Positions 3,386-27,034 of a stretch of DNA of 64,000 bases are shown here, in pieces; the stretch's first letter is position 1; each line of letters starts with the position of its first letter. Source of the DNA: Candidatus Omnitrophota bacterium (lineage in GTDB: Bacteria; Omnitrophota; Gorgyraeia; JAHJTE01). The DNA lies in contig JAGVEL010000017.1 in NCBI GenBank assembly GCA_020058285.1, positions 2,027 to 66,026 of the forward strand, in the 5' to 3' direction. The translations under genes were made by a program, and so were the position numbers. Below the pieces are notes generated by a model. It was given only the letters and a program-made list of their open reading frames with translations, was not told where the DNA came from and did no database searches.

Positions 3386-3730
3386 TCAATAATTTATAAG
3401 CCCTGTCAGCATCTTGCAGATTTCGTCTAAATTCCCTTTTAAAGCCTGTGCTTTTTCTACTTTGATGAGCCCTTTTCGCTTACACAGCTCAATAATCGGT
3501 ATACATTCAAAAGCAGAACCGCGTGAAATTCTAAAGAAGTTTATTCTATCTGCTTTATGATATCTTCCATTTCCTTCGGCGATATTCGTAGCTATGGATA
3601 ACGCCGCTCGATTCAAATGATCAGTTAGGTAATAACTTCTTTTTGGGAAGTCTTCGATTAAATTCCCGATTTCTTCGGCTAGAGCAATAGCCTTTTTATA
3701 AACTTCAAGGTTTTCAAATAAAAATGCCAT
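3386..3730 (-). CDS. Four-helix-bundle protein ('23S rRNA-intervening-sequence protein' family, TIGR02436-like)
   Basis: The 114-aa protein MAFLFENLEVYKKAIALAEEIGNLIEDFPKRSYYLTDHLNRAALSIATNIAEGNGR is typical of this small family. It is inserted between the tRNA and glmU. Confidence 0.75.
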   Translation of the reverse strand: MAFLFENLEVYKKAIALAEEIGNLIEDFPKRSYYLTDHLNRAALSIATNIAEGNGRYHKADRINFFRISRGSAFECIPIIELCKRKGLIKVEKAQALKGNLDEICKMLTGLINY

Positions 3731-3847: not shown

Positions 3848-3922
3848 TGGCTGGGACGTCTGGACTCGAACCAGAATAGCGAGACCCAAATTCTCGTGTC
3901 CTACCAATTAGACGACATCCCA
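3848..3922 (-). tRNA. tRNA-Gln (anticodon UUG), 75 nt, CCA encoded
   Basis: The reverse complement folds by hand as follows. Acceptor stem TGGGATG/CGTCCCA (U1:A72, one G-U pair). Anticodon stem CGAGA/TCTCG with loop ATTTGGG (U33, anticodon TTG). T-arm TCTGG-TTCGAGT-CCAGA. Then G73 and CCA. The 3' half is near-identical to E. coli tRNA-Gln (GGTTCGAGTCCAG..CCCAGCCA). Confidence 0.7.
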
Positions 3923-9051: not shown

Positions 9052-9090
9052 TTAACCCAACCTGTCTTTTATTTAAATATATTTGAACTC

Positions 9091-9119
9091 ATTATACTTT
9101 TTTTTAATATTCTTGTAAA
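9091..9119 (-). promoter_or_regulatory. Putative sigma70 promoter of hisG (-35 TTTACA, 17-nt spacer, -10 TATAAT)
   Basis: On the minus strand: tttacaagaatattaaaaaaaagtataat, about 40 nt upstream of the hisG ATG. Confidence 0.5.
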
Positions 9120-9180
9120 GGCAAATTTACAACCGCAAAGAACGCAAAATTCACTTATTATAAACTTCTAAAATAAAACG

Positions 9181-9420
9181 CAAAGGCTGCAAAAAAATAA
9201 CGCAGTCCTGCCTACGGCAGAGAAGGATACGCCTCTTTGTTTATACTGTCCAGCGGGTGACTTGGCTTGATTCGAGCAGCATCTTGAAAATTCGAGCGGG
9301 CATGGTTCGCCTGCTAATACAGTTTGCGAGAGCAAGAATTTTCACGAAGCGCAGTCCCGCCTCGCTGGGGCGGAACAAGCGGTTCTGCGAGAACAAGACA
9401 AGACAGGACCCGCTGCCCAA
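9181..9420. ncRNA. GC-rich (about 50% vs about 37% background) non-coding island with paired hairpins and short direct repeats; candidate sRNA or structured regulatory element
   Basis: No ORF is present. It has two CGCAGTCC-YGCC-loop-GGCRG hairpins (9203-9225 and 9349-9375). It also has ATTCGAGC x2 and TGCGAGARCAAGA x2 repeats. On the minus strand it ends in a hairpin plus a T-run (plus coordinates about 9199-9225). Confidence 0.3.
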
Positions 9421-9466
9421 TAGAATTCACACATAACTGAGTATACTATCCTAAGGAAATTACAAA

Positions 9467-9494
9467 TTGACACTTTTCTAAAACCGTGTTAAAT
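9467..9494 (+). promoter_or_regulatory. Sigma70-type promoter for the Cys-rich secreted gene pair (-35 TTGACA, 16-nt spacer, -10 TTAAAT)
   Basis: The reading ttgacacttttctaaaaccgtgttaaat is followed by the RBS aaggagg (9511-9517) and a GTG start at 9524. Confidence 0.6.
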
Positions 9495-9523
9495 TAATTT
9501 AATAAGCCTTAAGGAGGTGTGCT

Positions 9524-10057
9524 GTGATTAAAAAAACAATAGTAGTAATGCTCTTTATTTTGTCTGGTTTTATTTGTTTTAATCTATGCAGTTTTGCCCA
9601 AACTACAGAACAACTTGATATTACTACTTATTACCCCAGTCCGACCGGGGTATACCAACAGCTGCGGCTTTTCCCTACAAATGTTGCTCCTGCCTGCAAT
9701 GCTAATAACGAAGGTGCGCTTTATTATAACACGAGTAAAACTCTGTTCGTATGTGATGGGACTAGCTGGCAAAAAACATATCCTGCTGACATTCCCTCTA
9801 AGACACCAGCTGGCTGGCTTCCAATAGTAACAAATTTAACTGACCCATTGGTAAATCCAGGTACAACATGCAATTTCAGTGGATACGTTGTTTGCCCGGA
9901 TGCTGGACGCATGTGTGAAGATACTGAAACTCCTCCAGGTAAATATCCTAACTTTCAATGGTGTACTGCTCATCCCGTGGACTCCTGGAAATGTAGTACT
10001 ACATCAGGACATTGTGTCGCTGATGCGCCTGGAAGAGTCCATTGTTGCACCCCATAA
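9524..10057 (+). CDS. Secreted cysteine-rich protein, paralog A
   Basis: 177 aa with a signal peptide. The mature N-terminus AQTTEQLDITTYYPSPTGVYQQLRLFP is shared with paralog B. There are 10 or more Cys in the C-terminal half. A good SD is present. Confidence 0.7.
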   Translation: MIKKTIVVMLFILSGFICFNLCSFAQTTEQLDITTYYPSPTGVYQQLRLFPTNVAPACNANNEGALYYNTSKTLFVCDGTSWQKTYPADIPSKTPAGWLPIVTNLTDPLVNPGTTCNFSGYVVCPDAGRMCEDTETPPGKYPNFQWCTAHPVDSWKCSTTSGHCVADAPGRVHCCTP

Positions 10058-10083
10058 ATATATTAATAACTAAGGAGAATACG

Positions 10084-10605
10084 ATGCATAACAACAAAAC
10101 AATTTTTATAGCATTAATTGTTTTTCTTGCAGTAGCGATGTTTAATCTACCCTGCTTTGCCCAAACTACAGAACAACTTGATATTACTACTTATTACCCC
10201 AGTCCGACCGGGGTTTATCAGCAATTGCGGCTTTTCCCTAAAGATTTTGATACTACTGCTATTTGCAATGGGAAGGAAGGAACTCTAGCTTTTCACGCTA
10301 CGGACAATGCCTTATACGTTTGCGATGGCACTGGTCAATGGAAAAGAGTAGACAGGCCAACAGCCTTACAGCCAGCAGGCTGGATTACTGTTGCTACAGG
10401 TCTCGGCGACCCACTAGTTCATCCCACCACTAATTGTACCTTGAATAGTTTAATCAGTTGCCCTGATAGTGGGGGGTTTAATTGCCAGGATTCGGATGGT
10501 GTTCGAGCTGCTTCCTTCCATTGGTGGCTCGCAGTTAGCAAATGGTATTGTGCTGGCGGCTCTGCTGTTCAACTAACCGACGTACATTGCTGTTTTCCGC
10601 CTTAA
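10084..10605 (+). CDS. Secreted cysteine-rich protein, paralog B
   Basis: The start is placed at MHNNKTIFIALIV... with SD aaggaga rather than the upstream ATG of the ORF track. It has the same 27-aa conserved mature N-terminus as paralog A and a divergent Cys-rich C-terminus. Confidence 0.65.
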   Translation: MHNNKTIFIALIVFLAVAMFNLPCFAQTTEQLDITTYYPSPTGVYQQLRLFPKDFDTTAICNGKEGTLAFHATDNALYVCDGTGQWKRVDRPTALQPAGWITVATGLGDPLVHPTTNCTLNSLISCPDSGGFNCQDSDGVRAASFHWWLAVSKWYCAGGSAVQLTDVHCCFPP

Positions 10606-10622
10606 TTATAAGATTTGCGCAC

Positions 10623-10685
10623 TGCAAGCTTTAACACAAACTCCGCAAATATACTGGCTTACCAAACCTTGCTTTTGAAATTCTT
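10623..10685. repeat. Direct repeat copy 1 (about 64 bp, about 92% identical to 11262-11324); a pseudo-3'-end of the 4Fe-4S gene, candidate att site
   Basis: Copy 1: tgcaagctttaacacaaactccgcaaatatactggcttaccaaaccttgcttttgaaattctt. Copy 2: tgcaagctttaacacataccccacaaatatactggcttaccacgccttgcttttgaaattctt. Confidence 0.8.
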
Positions 10686-10688
10686 TAT

Positions 10689-10925
10689 CTACCCTTTTGA
10701 ATATGCCATGGCATAGCGGTCAACTAGCTCACGAATCATTCTTTGATATTTAGTGTGGTGACGTTGCGCTTGATGTTTAAAAAATTCAATGCTTGATTTT
10801 TTTAAGGATATGGTAATTTTTTTACTCTCCCCCGGAATAGCCAACTCTGCTGGCGATGGAAGGAAATCTTTAACTCTAACTAATGTGCCGATAGGCATTT
10901 CTGAATTAATCGTCTTTTTTTTCAT
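10689..10925 (-). CDS. brnA: BrnA antitoxin (RHH/CopG-like, type II toxin-antitoxin)
   Basis: The C-terminus KITISLKKSSIEFFKHQAQRHHTKYQRMIRELVDRYAMAY is BrnA-like. The start is placed at the internal ATG preceded by a perfect SD aagggagg. It overlaps the brnT stop by 20 nt. Confidence 0.7.
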   Translation of the reverse strand: MKKKTINSEMPIGTLVRVKDFLPSPAELAIPGESKKITISLKKSSIEFFKHQAQRHHTKYQRMIRELVDRYAMAYSKG

Positions 10926-11193
10926 AATATTGCCTCCCTTTTCTCCAATTCCCTGCGCCGAATATTCTAATTTTTTTTCCACGATAAGTAAATCTAACAG
11001 TTAAAATTTTCCCTTCGACTTTTCCAATGCAGAAAAACCTCTGTTCTTTTTTAGTATGTTTTGAGTCAATAAAAATTTTTCTATTAGCATCGCTAAAAAC
11101 TTTTGCAGCCGTAGTGAAATCAACGTTGTGTTTACGAATATTAGTCCGCTCTTTAGCCGCATTCCAAACAAAACTTCCCAGCGCCCTATCCAT
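10906..11193 (-). CDS. brnT: BrnT toxin (DUF497 / RelE-fold ribonuclease)
   Basis: 95 aa: FVWNAAKERTNIRKHNVDFTTAAKVFSD...IGKVEGKILTVRFTYRGKKIRIFGAGNWRKGRQYYEK matches the BrnT family pattern (W..K...N..KHG..F....F.D......R...G......V.YT.R...IRIISAR). Confidence 0.75.
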   Translation of the reverse strand: MDRALGSFVWNAAKERTNIRKHNVDFTTAAKVFSDANRKIFIDSKHTKKEQRFFCIGKVEGKILTVRFTYRGKKIRIFGAGNWRKGRQYYEKKDD

Positions 11194-11250
11194 GATAGAA
11201 ATATAACATATATATTGCTAATTGTCAATATAATTATACATATAATGCTA

Positions 11251-11925
11251 CTAACTGCCGTTGCAAGCTTTAACACATACCCCACAAATATACTGGCTTA
11301 CCACGCCTTGCTTTTGAAATTCTTTTAATTTTTCAAAACACCTCTGGTGGTCAAAGTCTTTTTTATCTTGCTTAATCGCTTCCACAGGGCAAGCCTTAAT
11401 ACAAGCAAAGCAGCTCCCGCAAGAAATTTTGTCCGGCAAATCTCGCTTTAGCGGCATATCCGTAAGAATTGTCGTTAATCTAAATCTTGCTCCTAAGTTT
11501 TTATTAACCAACAAATTATTTCTGCCAATCCATCCTAAACCAGCAAGATAACCAATCCGCTTATGCGATAAATGCGCCCTCTGTTTTTCCCAGTCAACAA
11601 TTTGCGATGCGGGTATAGGTAAAGCGCAAAAACCCTTGCTTTCAATAAAATTTGAAAGCCTAAAACTAAGCTGGTCAAGAAACATATTCGCGCTACGATA
11701 ATGATGAAAATAAATTTTATTCGGCGCTTCTTCAAGCGTTTTAAATATGCCTGAACTTAAAGTCACGGCAATTACTACTGCGCTATTTAAAGTCTCTATT
11801 GATTTTCCGGGCAAATTAAAATTCTCTTTTTCTTCTAATATATCCGCAACGCCAAATAAATTTGCGCCTAAAAGCAATGCCTGATTCTTTAACAGGTTAT
11901 AATTTTTAATCTTTTCTTTCGTCAT
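11251..11925 (-). CDS. 4Fe-4S ferredoxin-domain protein, QueG/DUF1730-like (possible short epoxyqueuosine reductase homolog)
   Basis: 224 aa with a C-terminal CGSCFACIKACP Fe-S motif. Its last approximately 24 codons are encoded by direct-repeat copy 2. Confidence 0.5.
   Translation of the reverse strand: MTKEKIKNYNLLKNQALLLGANLFGVADILEEKENFNLPGKSIETLNSAVVIAVTLSSGIFKTLEEAPNKIYFHHYRSANMFLDQLSFRLSNFIESKGFCALPIPASQIVDWEKQRAHLSHKRIGYLAGLGWIGRNNLLVNKNLGARFRLTTILTDMPLKRDLPDKISCGSCFACIKACPVEAIKQDKKDFDHQRCFEKLKEFQKQGVVSQYICGVCVKACNGS
11262..11324. repeat. Direct repeat copy 2 (forms the functional 3' end of the 4Fe-4S gene)
   Basis: See copy 1. Differences between the copies are mostly synonymous in the coding frame (EFQKQGVVSQYICGVCVKAC vs EFQKQGLVSQYICGVCVKAC). 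Confidence 0.8.
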
Positions 11926-11970: not shown

Positions 11971-13845
11971 CTAATTACTAACTGCCTGCTTTCTGTCTTT
12001 TTCAAGCCAGGTCATTAAAATCGAAATGCTCGCCGGAGTAACTCCGCATATCCGCCAGGCACTGGCTAAAGTCAAGGGTTTAAATTTCTCAAGCTTTTCC
12101 TTAATCTCGCGCGATAATCCAGGTATATCTGAAAAATTAATATCCTTAGAGAGTTTGATCTTTTCTAAATGCCGGAATTTATCAATCTCCTCTTGCTGGC
12201 GCTTAATAAACGGCGCATATTTTATTTGACTATTGATTGCCTGAGCTAAATTGTCCGGTAAGGAAACCTGCTCGCTAAAAACGTTTAATTGTTCATAATT
12301 AATTTCCGGCCTTTGTAATAACTCTTCTAAGCTAATAGCTCTTTTTATCGGACTGCTTTTAAAAATTTTGAGAATTGCGTTGGTCTTTTCGTCAGGTTTA
12401 AGCTTAATTTTCTTTAAGCGGCTCAGTTCTGAGTCAATAATTCTTTTCTTTTCTAGAGTGGTTTCATAATCCTGTTTACTCACTAACCCCAGGGAAAAAC
12501 CAAGTTTGCCTAATCTCAAATCCGCATTATCCTCACGTAAAAGCAAACGATATTCAACGCGGGAGGTAAACATCCGGTATGGCTCATCAGTGCCCTTGGT
12601 TACCAAATCATCAATCAATACTCCGATATAGCTTGATGAGCGGTCTAAAATAAACGCTGCTCTTTTTGTTAGCTTCAGGCTGGCATTAATCCCTCCGATT
12701 AAACCTAGGCTTGCTGCTTCCTCATATCCGGTTGTACCATTAAGTTGTCCGGTCACAAAGAGATTCTCAATTAATTTTGTCTCTAAGGTTGGCTTTAGCT
12801 GTGTTGGGTCTATCATATCATGCTCAATGCCATAGCCCGGTCTGACAAATGCAGCATTTTCTAAGCCGTTTATTGACTGGATTATTTTTAGCTGCACATC
12901 CTCAGGAAGACTGGTAGATAGCCCGTTGGGATAATACTCAATAGGTTCTTGTGTCTCCGGCTCTAAGAATATTTGATGCCGGCGATGAAGAGGAAATTTA
13001 ACTATTTTATCTTCCACAGACGGACAATACCTGACCCCGCAGGCTTTGATTTTGCCTGTATAAAGCGGTGAAAGATTCAAAGAATCTCTTATTATTTTAT
13101 GAGTTTTATCATTCGTATAAGTTATAAAACAAGGAAGCTGTTTTAATCTACTTGGGTTACCATTAAATGAAAAAGCTGTTGGCTTGATATCCGGGGATTG
13201 ACTCTCTAATTTAGAAAAATCTATTGAAGAAGCCTTAATCCTGGCGCATGTTCCGGTTTTAAACCTCTTAACCTTAAAACCCAATTTAATTAAATTCTTT
13301 GATAAATTTATTGAGGCTGGCTCGTTAATCCTGCCTGCAGGAAAACTCTTCAGGCCGATATGGATAAGGCCGTTTAAAAAAGTACCACAGGCTAAAATTA
13401 CTGCTTTTGAATGAATATCTGCGTTTGCCAAAGTCCTAACGCCGACAGCCTTATTAGCCTTAGTCAGAATTTTAAGTACCTCGTCTTCTAAAATAGATAA
13501 GCCGGAAAGATTACTTAAAAAATCTATCATAAACTGGTTGTAAACTTTTCTATCAATCTGACAACGCGTAGACCAAACTGCCGGGCCTTTAGATAGATTT
13601 AGTGTACGATAACCAATTGCACAAGCGTCCGCTGCCTTAGCCATTAAACCACCCAGGGCATCAACTTCTTTAACCAGCTGGCCCTTGCCCACACCGCCGA
13701 TTGCCGGATTGCAACTCATCAAACCGATTGTCTCGCGTTTTAAGCAAATCAGCAAAGTTTTCAAACCCATCCGGCAGCAGGAAACGCTCGCCTCAATGCC
13801 CGCATGGCCTGCACCAACAACTATGATATCAAAATGGTCTTTCAT
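11971..13845 (-). CDS. mnmG: tRNA uridine 5-carboxymethylaminomethyl modification enzyme MnmG (GidA)
   Basis: 624 aa. MKDHFDIIVVGAGHAGIEAS is the FAD-binding motif. Family length and architecture match. Confidence 0.95.
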   Translation of the reverse strand: MKDHFDIIVVGAGHAGIEASVSCCRMGLKTLLICLKRETIGLMSCNPAIGGVGKGQLVKEVDALGGLMAKAADACAIGYRTLNLSKGPAVWSTRCQIDRKVYNQFMIDFLSNLSGLSILEDEVLKILTKANKAVGVRTLANADIHSKAVILACGTFLNGLIHIGLKSFPAGRINEPASINLSKNLIKLGFKVKRFKTGTCARIKASSIDFSKLESQSPDIKPTAFSFNGNPSRLKQLPCFITYTNDKTHKIIRDSLNLSPLYTGKIKACGVRYCPSVEDKIVKFPLHRRHQIFLEPETQEPIEYYPNGLSTSLPEDVQLKIIQSINGLENAAFVRPGYGIEHDMIDPTQLKPTLETKLIENLFVTGQLNGTTGYEEAASLGLIGGINASLKLTKRAAFILDRSSSYIGVLIDDLVTKGTDEPYRMFTSRVEYRLLLREDNADLRLGKLGFSLGLVSKQDYETTLEKKRIIDSELSRLKKIKLKPDEKTNAILKIFKSSPIKRAISLEELLQRPEINYEQLNVFSEQVSLPDNLAQAINSQIKYAPFIKRQQEEIDKFRHLEKIKLSKDINFSDIPGLSREIKEKLEKFKPLTLASAWRICGVTPASISILMTWLEKDRKQAVSN

Positions 13846-15499: not shown

Positions 15500-17779
15500 T
15501 TAACACTTCGAATATCCACAGGAATGGCACTTGACGCAGCCTTCTTCGTGGCGTAAAGCACCGCCGCAATCAGGACAAACTCCGACGATGTTAGCGCTGT
15601 GCAGGCTATTTTCCACAACACTTTCTGCTTGAGCTAAAGTAGCCTCTGCTCCTGCGTTTTCCTCTATTGCATCCTTATCATTAACCAGGCGCTTCTCAAT
15701 AACCCGGGCAATAGCATCAGCACAAGAAAATATGCGCACACCCTTTTCCCAGGATGGCGACGGACATCTAATACCTCTTAATTGCTCAATGATTGATTTT
15801 AAGTCTAATTCAGAACGCAGAGACAAGGATACCAGGCGGCCAATTGCTTCAAGCTGGCTTGCTGCACACCCTCCGGCTTTGCCCATTTGAGTAAAAACTT
15901 CAAACGGCCTGCCTTGTTCATCGCAGTTTATCGTGACATAAAGATTGCCGCAGCCTGTTGCAACCTTTGTCGTCGTGCCGCATACAACCTCTGGCCTGGG
16001 CCGAGGCGTAATCTTTCCTTTTGGTATTGATATTTCCTTATCTTTTTCTGTTGATTTGCCTACATTTAAAACCTGTTCTTCGCGGCTGCCATCACGATAA
16101 ATCGTAACGCCTTTACATCCTAATTTAAAAGCTGACAAGTAAACTTGCCGCACATCATTCTCTGTAGCTGCTTTAGAAAAATTCACTGTTTTAGACACTG
16201 CGTTATCCGTATATTTTTGGAATGCAGCCTGCATCCGCGCATGCCAAATAGGCGAGATATCATGGGCAGTGACAAAAACCCTGCGCACATCCTCGGGGAT
16301 TTCTTTAATCTGGGCTAGCGAGTTCGTCTCAGCAACAGCCTCCATAAGTTTACGTGAATAAAAATTTCTTTCTTTAGCCACTTGTTCAAATATCGGATCA
16401 ACCTCAACCAGTTTATCATTATCCATAACGTTGCGATAATAAGAAATCGCAAATAACGGCTCTATCCCTGAAGAACATGGCCCGGCAATAATGCTAATCG
16501 TTCCCGTCGGAGCAATTGTAGTCAATGTCGCATTTCTCAAAGCTAAAGGAGGATTTAATTTAGCATATCTACTTTTATTAAACGCCGGAAAAGGCCCGCG
16601 TTTTTTGGCAATCTTCACAGAAGCCTTTTGCGATTCTTTTAAAATAAACGACATCAATTTTTCAGCTAAAATAAGCGCCTCTTCGCTATCATAAGGGATA
16701 TTTAATAAAAGAAGCAAGCTAGCCCAGCCCATTACTCCCAGGCCGATTTTCCTATTTCTCCGGGTATTTTCCTCAATCTGTTTAAGCGGGAATTTATTGA
16801 CATCAATTAGATTATCCAGGAAGTGTACGGCAAGATAAACTATCCTTTGTAACTTATCCCAATCTATCTCATATTTTAAATCCTGTTTCTTAACCATCTT
16901 ACAAAGATTAATTGAACCCAGGCAACAGCTTTCAAAAGGTAAAAGCGGCTGCTCACCGCAAGGGTTAGTGCTTTCAATCTCGCCCAGCTCCGGAGTAGGA
17001 TTATCTTTATTAACTCGGTCAATGAAGATAATTCCCGGCTCGCCGTTGTTATGAGCCATCTTCACAATCAAATCAAAGACCTCTTTTGTATTTAGTTCTC
17101 TGACTTTATTTTTTGTATGCGGGTCAATTAAATCGTAATTCTCGTTTTTTTCCAACCTTTTCATGAAATCATCAGTAACTGCTACGGAAATATTAAAATT
17201 GGATATTTGTTTGTCTTTGGCCTTACAGGTAATAAACTCCATTATATCCGGATGATCTACGCGTAATATCCCCATATTTGCCCCGCGCCGAGTACCGCCT
17301 TGTTTAACTGCCTCAGTTGCCGCGTCAAAAACCTTCATAAATGAAACCGGGCCTGAAGCTATGCCACCCGTAGAGCAAACCTGGCTATTTTTGGCTCGCA
17401 GCCGGGAAAAAGAAAAACCTGTACCTCCGCCGGTTTTATGAATGAGCGCTGTGGATTTTATCGCATCAAAAATACTCTCCATCGAATCATCAATCGGCAA
17501 AGTAAAACAAGCTGAGAGCTGGCCACCGGGTTTTCCTGCATTCATAAGACACGGGCTGTTGGGCATAAACTCTAGCTCAATCATCGCCTTATAAAAGCTC
17601 TCTGAAATTTGCTCAACTTCAAGATGGGTTGCTTTATAGAGTTTATCTGCGCTGGCTATCGCGCTGGCCACGCGCCTAAATAGCTGTTCCGGAGTCTCGA
17701 CAACCTTTCCTTCTGCATCTTTTTTAAGATAGCGCCTTTCCAAAACTTTTAAGGCATTTTCAGATAACTTAACGCTCAT
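15500..17779 (-). CDS. nrdJ: Class II (adenosylcobalamin-dependent) ribonucleotide reductase
   Basis: 759 aa. The N-terminus MSVKLSENALKVLERRYLKKD, the active-site region, and the C-terminal Cys cluster CPDCGGALRHEEGCVKCHSCGYSKC all fit NrdJ. Confidence 0.9.
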   Translation of the reverse strand: MSVKLSENALKVLERRYLKKDAEGKVVETPEQLFRRVASAIASADKLYKATHLEVEQISESFYKAMIELEFMPNSPCLMNAGKPGGQLSACFTLPIDDSMESIFDAIKSTALIHKTGGGTGFSFSRLRAKNSQVCSTGGIASGPVSFMKVFDAATEAVKQGGTRRGANMGILRVDHPDIMEFITCKAKDKQISNFNISVAVTDDFMKRLEKNENYDLIDPHTKNKVRELNTKEVFDLIVKMAHNNGEPGIIFIDRVNKDNPTPELGEIESTNPCGEQPLLPFESCCLGSINLCKMVKKQDLKYEIDWDKLQRIVYLAVHFLDNLIDVNKFPLKQIEENTRRNRKIGLGVMGWASLLLLLNIPYDSEEALILAEKLMSFILKESQKASVKIAKKRGPFPAFNKSRYAKLNPPLALRNATLTTIAPTGTISIIAGPCSSGIEPLFAISYYRNVMDNDKLVEVDPIFEQVAKERNFYSRKLMEAVAETNSLAQIKEIPEDVRRVFVTAHDISPIWHARMQAAFQKYTDNAVSKTVNFSKAATENDVRQVYLSAFKLGCKGVTIYRDGSREEQVLNVGKSTEKDKEISIPKGKITPRPRPEVVCGTTTKVATGCGNLYVTINCDEQGRPFEVFTQMGKAGGCAASQLEAIGRLVSLSLRSELDLKSIIEQLRGIRCPSPSWEKGVRIFSCADAIARVIEKRLVNDKDAIEENAGAEATLAQAESVVENSLHSANIVGVCPDCGGALRHEEGCVKCHSCGYSKC

Positions 17780-21690: not shown

Positions 21691-22839
21691 TTACTCATAT
21701 TTTATTTCATCAAGATAAAATACCGCTCCTTGAGGGTTCACATCAATATTCGTAGACCAGGCAAATCCGCCGCTTAAATAACTTAAATCTTTACCCTTAA
21801 GGTCTATTACATATTGTTTCCATTCCTTGGTTAATATCACTGGTCCAATGCCTGCGGAATCTGAATCCGGATATTCGCCCATAAGCCCGCCAATTTTTAA
21901 CTCTTCAATGCGCTCTGCGCCTTTTTCGCCTTTAGCCCAAAAAGTTATCTTTGTCGCTTTGGACAAATCATAACCGCCATCAACATTACCCCAGTTATTT
22001 GCCGGATTCTGCCAATAAATTCCTGCCCAGCGTGCACCGTTTGTAGCTTTCCCGGAATAACTTATCTTTATGCAACTGTCTCCAGACTGAGTATTTTCAG
22101 ACCAAGACTGATCCACAATTAAATCACCATAATCGCCCATCCAACCCGACAGGATAAAATGATTCTTTACCGAGATTCTGTCAGAATATACATAAAACGG
22201 CATAGTTTGTGCGGATTTTACTTCGGGCTTAACTGCATCATCCTTTTCAAATTTGATTTCATCAATATATATTGTTGCCCCCTTAGGATTAAGATCTGCA
22301 CTGGTTACAAAAGCAAACCCGCCGCTGATAGAGCTTAAATCCTCACCGGCAAGATTAATCGTATATTTTTCCCAGGTATTACTTAATTCAATTGGGCCAA
22401 AACTAACTTCAGTAGAGTCAAGATACGTACCTTTGATGCCGCCGACTTTAACCTTTTCAATTATCTCACCGCCAACTTTTCCTTTTGCCCAAAATGTAAG
22501 CTTAGTCATTCCTCTTAAATCAAATCCGCCTTGGACTGAACCCCAGTTATTTGCCGGGTTTTGCCAATACATTCCTGCCCAACCATATTTCTGGGAACGC
22601 GCTGCGCTATAGGTTATCTCTATACAGCTTGTGCCGCTATAAGGTTCCTTCATAGATTCTTCGTTTATTTTTAAATCCCCATAATCACCCATCCAGCCAC
22701 TGGGTATATAATGGTTTAATGGAGATCCTTTATCAGTATAAACAACAAATGTATCCTTGGCTGCTTCTTGAGCAAAACTAATAGTCGCTGCTGTCAACCC
22801 TAGTATTACTGTACTCAAAATTACTAAAACCCTTTTCAT
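21691..22839 (-). CDS. Secreted protein with two tandem approximately 180-aa homologous domains (probable carbohydrate-binding / CBM-like beta-sandwich)
   Basis: 382 aa with a signal peptide. Both internal repeats share SGWMGDYGDL...YWQNPANNWG..GG.DL...TK.TFWAKG....IE..K.GG..G.Y.DS....GP..L...W..Y.I.L.G.DLS...GGFA......NP.GA..Y.DEIK.E. Confidence 0.7.
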   Translation of the reverse strand: MKRVLVILSTVILGLTAATISFAQEAAKDTFVVYTDKGSPLNHYIPSGWMGDYGDLKINEESMKEPYSGTSCIEITYSAARSQKYGWAGMYWQNPANNWGSVQGGFDLRGMTKLTFWAKGKVGGEIIEKVKVGGIKGTYLDSTEVSFGPIELSNTWEKYTINLAGEDLSSISGGFAFVTSADLNPKGATIYIDEIKFEKDDAVKPEVKSAQTMPFYVYSDRISVKNHFILSGWMGDYGDLIVDQSWSENTQSGDSCIKISYSGKATNGARWAGIYWQNPANNWGNVDGGYDLSKATKITFWAKGEKGAERIEELKIGGLMGEYPDSDSAGIGPVILTKEWKQYVIDLKGKDLSYLSGGFAWSTNIDVNPQGAVFYLDEIKYE

Positions 22840-25507: not shown

Positions 25508-27034
25508 CTAGTCCCGTCTTTCTACTCTGCGCCTTTCCTCTTCTGCTCGTCTTTCTACTCTGCGCCCTTCTTCTTCTGCTCGTCTTTCTCCTCTGCGCCG
25601 CTCGACCTGCCCACGAATTTCAAAGCACTTAGCTTCTGTGAGATCAAAACTCATAATAACAAAAATAGCGGCTAAAGAGGTCACAATCGGGATGCCGATA
25701 TCACACAGCCGCATATTCAATAAAGCTTGCGGTGTTTGGTTGAGGCCTAATGTAACTTTAAAGCCGGTCATATTCAGGAGAATTCCGGAAATAAGCGATG
25801 AAGCTGCGACTCCCACTTTTACCATCCACCAGTAAATAGCGCCAAACATACCTTCCCTACGTGTATCGGTTCGAAGTTCATCAAGGTCGCAGACATCAGC
25901 GACCATAGAGCTAACTAAGGTAAAGAGTGATCCCAGGCCAAATGCGATGAACGGAGCAGCGATCATCAGTAAGTACGGATGCTCAGGATTATACCCTACC
26001 CACTTCAAAGCGTAACCGATTATTGAAATAGGAATAGTGATAAAGAATGTGTTTCTCTTACCGAGTTTTCTGGATAGCCATGTGGTTACGTAAATGGCGC
26101 CCATAGTACAAAGAGCAGAAAACGTCCCATAGATACCGAGCAAAAGACCGCCGTTTGCATAGGCTTGATCAAGAACAGGAGCATTCTTAAAGACGTAGAA
26201 GAAAACAACATAGATGGTAAAAGCTGACGCGCACATGAATCCACCAAAGATCAGTAAGGTGAACATGCACAGCTTGAAAAATGGCTTACATTTAAGAGTA
26301 ACAAAACCCCCGCCAAAGAAGTCTTTCGTCACATTCCAAGCGCCCTTGACATCAGGTTTTGGTAAGTCGTGAAAGTATTCTTTATTAAAGATAGCCGGCA
26401 GGATTCCGAACCCAACGATAATCATACCGATGATGATTGCAAGAACTCTTCCGCCATAAACGATATCCGGAAACCAGTTCTGGTTGTGCATAATAAACCA
26501 GCACCAAGGAGCGATGAACCAGGGCAATTGACCGACAATATTGCTGGCCCCCTGCAAGCGTGTGCGCTCATGATAATCAGGGGTCATTTCATATCCCAGC
26601 GCTATCCAAGGGATGGAAAAACAGGTAAATCCAATAAAATAAAGGGCCTGAAACACCCCGAAATACAAGACATAGAAACCTTCGCTATGCCCCTTATAGA
26701 GTTGATACATCAATGCGTAACAAATCCCGCCGGTAACCGCGCCAAATAATATAAGCGGCCTACGGCGTCCCCAACGGGTCCGTAGATTATCAGAAAAGTA
26801 GCCGGTTATGGGATCAGATATGGCATCAATAATACGGGGAATGGCTCCGACCAAACCCACTAAAGCTGGATTTACGCCTAATCCGAGGTTTAAAACAATG
26901 ACCATCTGTCCGATAAAGGCGGCCTGAGCAGTATTCGCAAATGCCCCCATACTGTATATGAATTTTTGAAAAAAAGGAATGCGGTCTTGGGGGGCTGTAA
27001 CATGGTGTTTAAGTTGACCAACTGATTGTTCCAT
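25508..27034 (-). CDS. MFS transporter, glycoside-pentoside-hexuronide (GPH):cation symporter family, with an Arg/Glu-rich repetitive C-terminal tail
   Basis: 508 aa. It has the GPH signature D..G..SDNLRTRWGRRRP and 12 TM helices. The tail RGQVERRRGERRAEEEGRRVERRAEEERRRVERRD is encoded by 33-bp tandem repeats at 25509-25600. Confidence 0.8.
   Translation of the reverse strand: MEQSVGQLKHHVTAPQDRIPFFQKFIYSMGAFANTAQAAFIGQMVIVLNLGLGVNPALVGLVGAIPRIIDAISDPITGYFSDNLRTRWGRRRPLILFGAVTGGICYALMYQLYKGHSEGFYVLYFGVFQALYFIGFTCFSIPWIALGYEMTPDYHERTRLQGASNIVGQLPWFIAPWCWFIMHNQNWFPDIVYGGRVLAIIIGMIIVGFGILPAIFNKEYFHDLPKPDVKGAWNVTKDFFGGGFVTLKCKPFFKLCMFTLLIFGGFMCASAFTIYVVFFYVFKNAPVLDQAYANGGLLLGIYGTFSALCTMGAIYVTTWLSRKLGKRNTFFITIPISIIGYALKWVGYNPEHPYLLMIAAPFIAFGLGSLFTLVSSMVADVCDLDELRTDTRREGMFGAIYWWMVKVGVAASSLISGILLNMTGFKVTLGLNQTPQALLNMRLCDIGIPIVTSLAAIFVIMSFDLTEAKCFEIRGQVERRRGERRAEEEGRRVERRAEEERRRVERRD

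What the first reader, a model, noticed from the sequence alone, without database searches (positions are those of the whole stretch)
10623..11324. BrnT/BrnA toxin-antitoxin cassette bracketed by 64-bp direct repeats that duplicate and re-code the 3' end of the adjacent 4Fe-4S gene (attL/attR-like)
The 4Fe-4S gene at 11251..11925 finishes inside repeat copy 2. Copy 1, about 640 bp away on the far side of brnTA, would encode the same C-terminus (EFQKQGLVSQYICGVCVKAC...). The 5 mismatches between the copies are almost all synonymous. This is the classic signature of an integrative element that inserts into a gene's 3' end and supplies a replacement end. Here the cargo is only a toxin-antitoxin pair with no integrase, either a minimal or decayed island or a cassette mobilised in trans.
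Basis: seen in the sequence. Interest (0 to 1): 0.65.

Follow-up and report, generated by a model that had tools for sequence, protein, structure and literature searches.

The report
Toxin-antitoxin insert duplicating a gene end
A small, self-contained brnT/brnA toxin-antitoxin module was inserted into the last 27 codons of a conserved iron-sulfur gene and keeps that gene intact through a second copy of its end; this is a real but fairly ordinary kind of insertion scar, and related toxin-antitoxin modules in other genomes show the same scar.

Summary
Two 64-nt direct repeats (10623-10686 and 11262-11325, 59/64 identical) bracket a 575-bp segment. That segment is almost entirely a brnT/brnA operon with its own promoter. 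The upstream copy is the real 3' end of a 224-aa QueG-like 4Fe-4S gene. The downstream copy is an orphan fragment reading KEFQKQGLVSQYICGVCVKAC-SAQIL*.

Three syntenic relatives have mnmG, the QueG-like gene and hisG without brnTA and without a second copy, so the module is an insertion.

The replacement tail (NGS*) looks like a genuine family C-terminus, and 4 of 5 mismatches are synonymous. This argues that the incoming DNA carried an orthologous gene end, which fits a Campbell-type (attL/attR-like) integration better than a plain target-site duplication.

No recombinase lies in the 64-kb window, the repeat has no integron-attC fold, and the sister cassettes share no sequence outside the operon. 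The enzyme is therefore unresolved.

The pattern recurs. 17 of 64 related brnTA loci have flanking direct repeats, against 5 of 95 control positions. The closest sister cassette has a 46-nt gene-end duplication with empty sites in two relatives. A hicBA module sits at that same site with its own duplication.

The nearest precedents are e14 at icd, cis-mobilizable elements (CIMEs), and 'insertion with long target duplication' of restriction-modification genes. I class it as a new member of a known kind, of moderate interest.

The parts
11251..11925 (-). Target gene: a 224-aa QueG-like 4Fe-4S protein (Fer4_16 domain). It is intact and ends ...KEFQKQGVVSQYICGVCVKAC-NGS*.
   Evidence: ORF. PF13484 scores 31 bits against a cut-off of 30. 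TIGR00276 (QueG) scores only 74 bits against a cut-off of 200, and it also resembles reductive dehalogenase (RDH). There are 4330 homologues, the best non-self at 67-68% identity, from Omnitrophota. It is syntenic with mnmG and hisG in L018, L019 and L021.
11262..11325 (-). Direct repeat copy 2: the functional 3' coding end of the 4Fe-4S gene (21 codons plus 1 nt).
11245..11261 (-). Replacement tail: AC GGC AGT TAG, giving ..NGS*, plus 5-6 nt. This lies between the repeat and the conserved TA module.
   Evidence: Sequence. The tail matches the family pattern, with Gly at +2 in 100/120 and Asn at +1 in 19/120. The closest relative, L018, ends AAC GGT GAT TGA (CNGD*). Homology to sister cassettes starts only at 11244-11242.
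11194..11244 (-). The brnTA promoter and palindromic operator, conserved across the cassette clade. The -35 TTGACA is at 11228-11223 and the -10 TATATT at 11205-11200.
   Evidence: Promoter scan gives 11 of 12 matches, a 17-nt spacer and an upstream TG. The same element sits in front of brnT in L104, L106, L109, L022 and L042.
10906..11193 (-). brnT toxin gene (95 aa).
   Evidence: PF04365, E = 5e-22, 78 bits against a cut-off of 34.5. It has 385 homologues, the best non-self at 77-78% identity, from Brocadiales. No column that is invariant across the 36-sequence alignment is altered in it.
10689..10925 (-). brnA-like antitoxin gene (78 aa). Its start overlaps the end of brnT by 20 nt.
   Evidence: Sequence. 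The hits are sub-threshold: DUF6364 20 bits, CopG_antitoxin 16 bits, BrnA_antitoxin 15 bits. The size and position match the 78-81-aa partners in L104, L106 and L109.
10623..10686 (-). Direct repeat copy 1: the orphan copy of the gene end. It starts 2 nt after the brnA stop codon.
   Evidence: It does not fold into a hairpin (z about -0.3).
10606..10622 (-). Tail of the orphan copy (..SAQIL plus stop at 10606-10608). It abuts the stop codon of the convergent gene. I infer that this is the native, displaced end of the 4Fe-4S gene.
   Evidence: Translation. Relative L021 has the same convergent arrangement, with the QueG-like stop 8 bp from the stop of a homologous secreted-protein gene.
10042..10605 (+). 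Context: a convergent 187-aa secreted-protein gene that marks the native downstream flank. It is one of a tandem pair with 9524-10057.
   Evidence: No Pfam or NCBIfam hit.

Best explanation
A foreign, self-sufficient brnT/brnA addiction module was integrated into the chromosome by one reciprocal (Campbell-type) crossover. The module is 556 bp: promoter-operator, toxin and antitoxin. The crossover took place between the 3' end of the resident QueG-like 4Fe-4S gene and a closely related copy of that gene end carried next to brnTA on the incoming, probably circular, DNA of about 639 bp.

The result, in gene order, is: gene body, hybrid repeat copy 2, incoming natural tail NGS*, brnTA, hybrid repeat copy 1, native tail SAQIL*, native downstream gene. 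The gene stays functional because the conserved Cys motif and a normal C-terminus are restored. The old end is left behind as a silent relic. The toxin-antitoxin pair then resists loss.

**Shown:** the anatomy; that brnTA is absent from this position in relatives; that the replacement tail looks natural; and that the scar recurs at other TA loci, including one with empty sites.

**Inferred:** the circular intermediate; that tail 1 is the native one; and the enzyme. I cannot decide between a site-specific recombinase acting in trans or since lost (about 0.4 of my belief) and host homologous recombination on a circularised fragment from a related donor (about 0.3).
For: **1. Repeat anatomy**.

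**2. Synteny.** The order mnmG, QueG-like gene, hisG holds in L018, L019 and L021, with no brnTA and only one copy of the motif.

**3. The two copies are each other's closest relatives.** They are 92% identical to each other but only 61-73% identical to any relative.

**4. Synonymous excess.** Four of five differences are synonymous. The probability of at least 4 of 5 is 0.03-0.08 if one copy simply decayed after a target duplication, and 0.53-0.70 if both evolved as coding sequence.

**5. The tail after copy 2 is a bona fide family end.** It reads N-G-S-stop. Gly is at +2 in 100/120 homologues, Asn at +1 in 19/120, and L018 ends CNGD* with the same tail length.

**6. Copy 1's stop abuts the stop of a convergent secreted-protein gene,** as in relative L021.

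**7. The insert is essentially only the TA module.** Homology to eight sister cassettes runs from 11244-11242 to the brnA stop.

**8. The sister cassette L104/L105 shows the same scar with empty sites.** Its BrnT is 77-78% identical.
- It is bracketed by an exact 46-nt duplication of the V-ATPase D gene end.
- Relatives L111 and L110 carry a single copy and no cassette.
- The DNA after the first copy forms a different terminator-like palindrome from the native one that follows the second copy. The incoming DNA therefore seems to have carried an ortholog-like gene end plus terminator.

**9. Further cases.**
- L113 has hicBA at that same site with a 27-nt duplication.
- L033 duplicates the last 19 nt of tRNA-Glu.
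- L069 duplicates about 50 nt of the upstream gene's coding end.

**10. Enrichment.** Flanking direct repeats occur at 17 of 64 brnTA loci against 5 of 95 shifted control positions, Fisher p = 2.6e-4.
Against: - No recombinase or transposase domain is found in any ORF of the window. No circular form or excision can be observed.
- The nearest relatives are only 66-68% identical in this protein. There is therefore no species-level empty site, and I cannot tell directly which copy and tail is native.
- The native tail proposed here (SAQIL) is atypical for the family. Ala at +2 occurs in 2 of 120 homologues.
- The longest perfectly matching runs between the copies are 20, 19 and 16 nt. That is short for RecA-type recombination unless the mismatches arose later.
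- The synonymous-site test rests on five sites. Pooled by eye with L062 and L069, the excess disappears.
- Everything rests on one metagenome-assembled contig.
Confidence: 0.6

Rival explanations
1. The repeats are attL and attR of a tyrosine- or serine-recombinase element that targets the 3' end of this gene and carries a replacement end in its attP. What remains is either a decayed island reduced to its addictive TA module (CIME-like) or a minimal cassette mobilised in trans by an integrase encoded elsewhere.
For: - The architecture matches e14 at icd, where icd extends into the prophage, an icdC C-terminal pseudogene lies on the far side, and the differences are mostly synonymous (PMC13626634).
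- It also matches the CIME definition: attL and attR retained, integration genes lost (PMC5704250).
- L033 duplicates a tRNA-Glu 3' end by 19 nt and has a third partial copy. That is typical of integrase targets and tandem accretion.
- Repeats of 18-25 nt at L032 and L047 are too short for homologous recombination.
- Two different TA modules use the same atpD end.
- A TA module is the part of an island that can least easily be deleted. This last point is inference.
Against: - There is no recombinase in the insert or in 64 kb around it.
- Nothing is conserved among sister cassettes outside the operon.
- I saw no shared motif among the repeats at different loci.
- Sister cassettes that are 70-78% identical sit in unrelated targets, so each would need its own integrase.
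- For a decayed island, deletions would have had to stop within 2 nt and 5-6 nt of the operon on the two sides while sparing both 64-nt sites.
- A viral-contig scan for the gene-end motif found nothing.
Confidence: 0.3
2. [quoted passage not shown] The 64 nt of the target itself was duplicated at insertion, for example by a staggered break and fill-in. The upstream copy stayed under selection, the downstream copy decayed, and the NGS* tail is just the edge of the insert.
For: - The precedent involves addiction modules with no mobility genes, flanked by 45-420-bp direct repeats that often span a neighbour's stop codon (PMC2853133).
- The insert here contains only the TA module.
- L104/L105 has an exact 46-nt duplication with empty sites.
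- L069 and L062 show no clear synonymous excess.
Against: - The tail after copy 2 is N-G-S-stop. It has the family's Gly at +2 and the same length as the closest relative's CNGD*. A random insert edge would give Gly there about 6% of the time.
- 4 of 5 differences being synonymous has P = 0.03-0.08 under this model.
- In L104 the insert edge completes a terminator-like palindrome together with the last 6 nt of the repeat. That is hard to get by chance.
Confidence: 0.08
3. The repeat would be incidental to brnTA. The gene always ended NGS*, and brnTA landed just downstream of its stop. Later a block from a related genome was pasted in behind brnA. That block held the convergent secreted-protein gene(s) together with the last 82 nt of the donor's QueG-like gene.
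For: - The interval between the QueG-like gene and hisG is variable among relatives. It is empty in L018 and L019 and holds a 373-aa secreted-protein gene in L021.
- Tail 2 looks more native than tail 1.
- This also explains the synonymous divergence between the two copies.
Against: - It needs two independent events landing within 2 nt of each other.
- It does not explain why sister TA modules elsewhere are also bracketed by gene-end duplications, nor the L104 case, where the native downstream sequence follows the second copy.
Confidence: 0.1
4. The structure would be an assembly artefact joining two strain variants of the locus.
For: The only source is a single metagenome-assembled contig. 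The exact proteins occur on one contig only, and the BrnT look-up found no independent record.
Against: - The two copies share no identical run longer than 20 nt. Typical assembly k-mers would therefore not collapse or bridge them.
- Both junctions are shorter than one read.
- The same architecture is seen in independent assemblies for other loci, namely L104 and L105.
Confidence: 0.03

Closest known systems
e14 (and phage 21) integration into the 3' end of icd in Escherichia coli
   Same: The element sits inside the 3' end of a protein-coding gene and the gene is completed by an element-borne end. The displaced original end (icdC) remains as a pseudogene on the far side. The two ends differ mostly by synonymous or conservative changes (PMC13626634).
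   Different: e14 is a 15-kb prophage with its own integrase and excises on SOS induction. Here the insert is 575 bp, carries only a TA operon, and has no recombinase within 64 kb. Excision is untested.
CIMEs (cis-mobilizable elements), the decayed ICE/IME remnants of streptococci
   Same: [quoted passage not shown]
   Different: CIMEs are recognised because related ICEs or IMEs with cognate integrases use the same site. No such partner element is known here, and I cannot show that the repeats are recombinase substrates.
[quoted passage not shown]
   Same: A post-segregational-killing module with no mobility gene is flanked by direct repeats longer than 30 bp. These often span the stop codon of a neighbouring gene, which leaves that gene intact. 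The mechanism is unknown (PMC2853133).
   Different: It was described for restriction-modification systems, not for classical type II TA pairs (the review PMC3874152, ascribes it to RM only). In the window the upstream copy is followed by an ortholog-like tail, which points to imported homology rather than duplication of the target.
Toxin-antitoxin cassettes of chromosomal integrons
   Same: The geometry is equally compact: site, about 60 nt of own promoter, toxin, antitoxin, site. More distant brnTA relatives do sit in arrays with attC-like repeats (L053, L075, L077, L100).
   Different: The window repeat is coding sequence of a core gene. It has no attC-type palindrome (fold z about -0.3), and there is no integron integrase in the window.

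Membership tests
BrnT/BrnA type II toxin-antitoxin system | Toxin carries the BrnT_toxin (PF04365) domain above the curated threshold | tested here: met
   78.3 bits against a cut-off of 34.5, E = 5e-22. No alignment-wide invariant position is altered.
BrnT/BrnA type II toxin-antitoxin system | Adjacent, co-transcribed small antitoxin of the BrnA/ribbon-helix-helix type, downstream of the toxin | tested here: inconclusive
   A 78-aa ORF overlaps the brnT stop by 20 nt. PF14384 scores 15.4 bits (cut-off 26.1), PF12441 scores 16.4 and DUF6364 scores 20.1, all below threshold. The gene order and size match sister loci.
BrnT/BrnA type II toxin-antitoxin system | Ribonuclease toxicity neutralised by the antitoxin | not testable with these tools
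   Needs expression experiments.
Site-specific integrative element in a gene 3' end (e14/icd type; CIME when the integrase is lost) | Direct repeats bracket the insert, and one lies inside the 3' end of the target gene | tested here: met
   Repeats at 11262-11325 (inside the gene) and 10623-10686.
Site-specific integrative element in a gene 3' end (e14/icd type; CIME when the integrase is lost) | The target reading frame is completed by an element-side end | tested here: met
   The gene ends ..KAC-NGS*. The tail fits the family pattern.
Site-specific integrative element in a gene 3' end (e14/icd type; CIME when the integrase is lost) | Empty site in related genomes | tested here: inconclusive
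   L018, L019 and L021 lack brnTA and have a single copy, but they are only 66-68% identical in this protein. There is no species-level comparison.
Site-specific integrative element in a gene 3' end (e14/icd type; CIME when the integrase is lost) | A cognate integrase or recombinase in the element or demonstrably available | tested here: not met
   No recombinase or transposase domain in the insert or in any window ORF. The rest of the genome was not available.
Site-specific integrative element in a gene 3' end (e14/icd type; CIME when the integrase is lost) | Excision to a circle and an attB-restored chromosome | not testable with these tools
   Needs reads or PCR.
Insertion with long target duplication (Nobusato/Furuta) | The insert holds only the addiction module, with no mobility gene, and the repeat is longer than 30 bp | tested here: met
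   The insert is 575 bp, of which 556 bp is the TA module. The repeat is 64 nt.
Insertion with long target duplication (Nobusato/Furuta) | Both repeat copies correspond to one sequence at an empty site, so the target itself was duplicated | tested here: inconclusive
   The window's relatives are too distant. The ortholog-like tail and the synonymous bias argue against a simple target duplication. The feature is met for sister cassette L104 against L111 and L110.
Integron gene cassette | attC recombination site with imperfect palindromic structure, and an IntI integrase nearby | tested here: not met
   The repeat with flanks does not fold better than shuffles on either strand. No integrase in the window.
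QueG (epoxyqueuosine reductase), for the target gene | Reaches the TIGR00276 equivalog threshold | tested here: not met
   74 bits against a cut-off of 200, matching only profile positions 129-209 of 337. I therefore call it 'QueG-like 4Fe-4S protein'.

The most novel reading that the evidence does not exclude
Type II toxin-antitoxin operons (brnTA and hicBA here) may spread between related genomes as integrase-less mini-units. Each unit would carry a copy of a neighbouring conserved gene's 3' end, or a tRNA end, plus terminator. It would re-enter chromosomes by a single crossover at that conserved end. This would leave gene-end duplications as a diagnostic scar and create TA hotspots behind particular genes. 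It would be a TA counterpart of the 'long target duplication' life cycle proposed for restriction-modification systems, which to my knowledge has not been described for classical TA pairs.
Probability: 0.3. Interest if true: 0.65.

Novelty: new member of a known kind. Interest (0 to 1): 0.45.

Why it matters
How chromosomal toxin-antitoxin pairs move when no transposase, integrase or integron lies next to them is poorly explained. This locus and its sister loci give a concrete, checkable scar: a TA-only insert bracketed by a duplicated gene end, with an ortholog-like tail or terminator after the first copy. That scar can be searched for across complete genomes and tested with a marked minicircle.

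It also has a practical side. Annotation pipelines will miss the orphan gene-end fragment. The intact-looking 4Fe-4S gene is probably a chimera of resident and imported sequence.

Tried and rejected
1. **Integron attC site.** Both strands of both copies with flanks fold no better than shuffles. Rejected.

2. **RNA or tRNA gene as the target.** Rfam (gathering thresholds) and ARAGORN find nothing at the site.

3. **Element-borne attP in viruses.** A scan of viral contigs for a degenerate QYICGVCVKAC DNA pattern gave 0 hits. Only two distant BrnT loci occur in viral contigs, and neither has flanking repeats.

4. **Recombinase nearby.** Pfam on all sizeable window ORFs found none. The interior of the 9567-aa ORF was only partly scanned.

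5. **Other copies of the 64-mer in the window.** None. No other gene-end duplications in 1-35300.

6. **Homology-facilitated illegitimate recombination of a linear fragment.** I considered it because it explains imported orthologous sequence. I rejected it as the direct cause, because a single colinear strand replacement cannot duplicate the anchor sequence. This is reasoning, not a computation.

7. **Which copy is native.** I compared the five variable sites with relatives. This was uninformative, since relatives are 61-73% identical to both copies.

8. **Common motif among the repeats of different loci.** None seen by eye.

9. **Is the compact size a detection bias?** Extending the repeat search to 4 kb of flank left only 18 loci with long flanks, too few to say.

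10. **Independent contig carrying the window's BrnT.** Not on record.

11. **A species-level empty site for the window.** None exists among 5.8 billion proteins. The best non-self hit to the 4Fe-4S protein is 67-68% identical.
Full report
**1. What is in the sequence**

Between 10623 and 11325 the window holds two 64-nt direct repeats, at 10623-10686 and 11262-11325. They are 59/64 identical and 639 nt apart, start to start. They are the only copies in the 64-kb window, and the match is far beyond chance (about 1e-20 expected).

All relevant genes lie on the minus strand. Read in gene order, the region contains:
- mnmG (11971-13845).
- A 224-aa 4Fe-4S gene (11251-11925). Its codons 201-221 are repeat copy 2, and it then ends NGS*.
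- 5-6 nt of spacer.
- A strong sigma-70-like promoter: TTGACA, 17 nt, TATATT, with a TG extension, at 11228-11200.
- brnT (10906-11193; PF04365, 78 bits).
- An overlapping 78-aa antitoxin gene (10689-10925; only sub-threshold BrnA/CopG hits).
- 2 nt of spacer.
- Repeat copy 1, which reads KEFQKQGLVSQYICGVCVKAC and runs on as SAQIL*.

The stop codon of copy 1 (10606-10608) touches the stop codon of a convergent 187-aa gene (10042-10605). No ORF of 40 aa or more contains copy 1. Four of the five mismatches are synonymous third-position changes, and the fifth changes Leu to Val.

**2. Is it an insertion?**

The 4Fe-4S protein belongs to a large family of short QueG-like proteins. The search found 4330 homologues. 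The window's protein is below the QueG equivalog threshold. Named homologues come from Candidatus Omnitrophota, and the best non-self hit is only 67-68% identical.

Three of the closest relatives (L018, L019, L021) share the window's gene order: ribonucleotide reductase, phosphoglycerate mutase, mnmG, QueG-like gene, hisG, TPR protein, transketolase.
- In L018 and L019 the QueG-like gene is followed directly by hisG.
- In L021 a convergent 373-aa secreted-protein gene lies between them, with its stop 8 bp from the QueG-like stop. Its N-terminus is homologous to the window's two small proteins at 9524-10605.
- None of the relatives has brnTA there, and none of 20 fetched loci has a second copy of the C-terminal motif.

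brnTA is therefore lineage-specific at this site. Copy 1 sits exactly where a native gene end would sit relative to the convergent gene.

**3. What exactly was inserted**

Nucleotide homology between the window's cassette and sister cassettes in different genomic contexts (eight loci, six distinct contexts) begins at 11244-11242, the edge of the palindromic operator. It ends at or just before the brnA stop.

Of the 575 bp between the repeats, 556 bp are the functional TA module. The rest is the 11-nt tail ACGGCAGTTAG (..NGS*), 5-6 nt, and 2 nt after brnA. Nothing outside the operon is shared among sister cassettes, so I found no conserved element ends. The repeat is not an integron attC site, because neither strand folds better than shuffled sequence. 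No Rfam family or tRNA lies at the site. No ORF of the window carries a recombinase or transposase domain.

**4. Target duplication or imported gene end?**

Two observations argue that the sequence now completing the gene came from a second, functional orthologue and was not simply a duplicated target.

First, the tail after copy 2 looks like a natural family end. Among 120 homologues, Gly follows the last Cys at +2 in 100, and Asn is at +1 in 19. The closest relative, L018, ends CNGD* with the same tail length (AACGGTGATTGA against AACGGCAGTTAG). A random insert edge would rarely give this.

Second, getting 4 or more synonymous differences out of 5 has these probabilities:

| Model | P(at least 4 of 5 synonymous) |
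|---|---|
| Both copies drifted neutrally | 0.006-0.019 |
| One copy decayed after a target duplication | 0.03-0.08 |
| Both copies diverged as coding sequence | 0.53-0.70 |

The copies are 92% alike but only 61-73% like any relative, so the donor was a close relative.

A reciprocal single crossover between the resident gene end and a homologous end carried next to brnTA reproduces every feature. The incoming DNA would be about 639 bp: repeat, NGS* tail, TA module, 2 nt.

The sequence does not reveal the enzyme. I considered homology-facilitated illegitimate recombination of a linear fragment and rejected it, because a colinear strand replacement cannot duplicate its own anchor.

**5. The same scar elsewhere**

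I fetched 80 metagenomic loci encoding BrnT relatives and compared the flanks on either side of each cassette. 17 of 64 testable loci have a direct repeat bracketing the cassette, against 5 of 95 control positions shifted by 2-3 kb in the same loci (Fisher p = 2.6e-4).

Some are integron-type arrays with palindromic ..YTAAC/GTTAGGG.. repeats: L053, L075, L077, L100 and L058/L060.

Others copy the end of a neighbouring gene:
- **L033:** the last 19 nt of tRNA-Glu, plus a third partial copy.
- **L069:** about 50 nt of the upstream gene's coding end.
- **L089:** 33 nt abutting the stop of a convergent gene resembling D-aminoacyl-tRNA deacylase (dtd), identified by eye only.
- **L026 and L032:** 10-18 nt next to an IS200-like gene (identified by eye only), conserved in two genomes that are 77% identical.
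- **L062 and L047:** coding-looking or unassigned repeats.

The two closest BrnT relatives (77-78% identical; Brocadiales, L104 and L105) are bracketed by an exact 46-nt repeat. One copy is the last 13 codons, the stop and 5 nt of the convergent V-ATPase D gene.
- Relatives whose V-ATPase D is 91% and 95% identical (L111, L110) have that gene, a single copy of the segment, the native terminator and no cassette. These are true empty sites.
- In L104 the second copy is followed by the native terminator (GGGGCGAAC..GTTCGCCC, as in L111).
- The first copy runs into a different perfect palindrome (GGGCGTATTGCAATACGCCC). This again looks as if the incoming DNA brought an orthologue-like gene end with its own terminator.
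- A third relative (L113) carries a different TA pair, hicB/hicA, at the same gene end, with a 27-nt duplication at 85% identity.

The window's structure is therefore one instance of a recurrent way in which TA-only units sit in chromosomes.

**6. Comparison with what is known**

- **e14 at icd.** The architecture is that of e14 or phage 21 at icd: the gene extends into the element, a C-terminal pseudogene lies on the far side, and the differences are mostly synonymous (PMC13626634).
- **CIMEs.** An att-flanked element without integration genes is what streptococcal workers call a CIME (PMC5704250).
[quoted passage not shown] A later review ascribes this behaviour to RM systems only (PMC3874152). 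My limited literature searches found no equivalent description for classical type II TA pairs.

Membership in the integrase-element family fails on the one testable defining feature, a recombinase. Membership in the plain target-duplication class is doubtful for the window because of the orthologue-like tail.

**7. Verdict**

The enzyme is unproven. My belief is divided as follows:

| Explanation | Belief |
|---|---|
| Campbell-type insertion of a module that brought an orthologous gene end | about 0.6-0.7 |
| of which: dedicated recombinase, acting in trans or since lost | about 0.3-0.4 |
| of which: host recombination on a circularised fragment | about 0.3 |
| Plain target duplication | about 0.08 |
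| Incidental repeat imported with the neighbouring secreted-protein genes | about 0.1 |
| Assembly artefact | about 0.03 |

It is a new member of a known kind. Its wider interest lies in the recurring scar at other TA loci, which could be turned into a systematic test of how TA pairs move.

**Caveats:** one MAG contig, no close relatives, five informative sites, and a survey of 80 loci classified largely by eye.

Noticed in passing
window 35239-63942 (-): A single ORF of 9567 aa fills the last 29 kb of the window. The N-terminal 1647 aa carry methyltransferase and HAD-like hydrolase hits. The C-terminal 1586 aa have no Pfam hit.
   Followed up: partly
window 9524-10057 and 10042-10605 (+): Two tandem paralogous small proteins with signal-peptide-like N-termini and a shared motif TTYYPSPTGVYQQLRLFP. 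They share a 114-nt repeat at 88% identity. Neither has a Pfam or NCBIfam hit. A 373-aa homologue occupies the same interval in relative L021.
   Followed up: partly
L113 3597-4191: A hicB/hicA pair sits directly behind the V-ATPase D gene, flanked by a 27-nt duplication of that gene's end at 85% identity. This is the same spot where L104 and L105 carry brnTA with a 46-nt duplication. It is a TA hotspot at one gene end.
   Followed up: yes
L033 314-1257: tRNA-Glu (314-391) has its last 19 nt repeated exactly after a brnTA pair (1239-1257). A third partial copy lies at about 553-565. Each full copy is followed by its own terminator hairpin.
   Followed up: partly
L026 1520-2190 and L032 3890-4570: The two loci are syntenic at 76.6% nucleotide identity over 4.5 kb, including brnTA. 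Both keep CACTGTCTAC on each side of the cassette, next to a gene that looks IS200-like by eye (no domain search was run). In L026 the upstream ORF reads through the repeat to a TAG at the cassette edge. The conservation of the 10-mer is unexplained.
   Followed up: partly
L053, L075, L077, L100, L058/L060: More distant brnTA relatives (about 51-54% identical) lie in arrays of 80-130-nt palindromic repeats that start ..YTAAC and end GTTAGGG/GTTA. These look like integron attC sites, with up to three copies per locus. No integrase search was done.
   Followed up: no
window 15500-17779 (-), compared with L018 1-1476 and L021 1-1495: The ribonucleotide reductase of relatives L018 and L021 is about 1195 aa and carries an intein with a LAGLIDADG endonuclease. 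The window's copy (759 aa) and L019's (763 aa) lack it.
   Followed up: no
window 3386-3730 (-) and 3848-3922 (-): A gene for a 23S rRNA intervening-sequence protein (PF05635, 107 bits) lies next to the only tRNA in the window, tRNA-Gln. No rRNA is nearby.
   Followed up: no
window 9052-9523: About 470 bp between hisG and the first secreted-protein gene has no convincing ORF and locally higher G+C (up to 0.47). There is no Rfam hit at gathering thresholds. The corresponding spacer in relatives is 108-254 bp.
   Followed up: no
window 25515-25613 and 21965-22581: Three tandem 33-nt units lie at the start of the MFS transporter gene region. A 65-nt internal repeat (83% identical, 552 nt apart) lies inside the unannotated ORF 21691-22839.
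   Followed up: no
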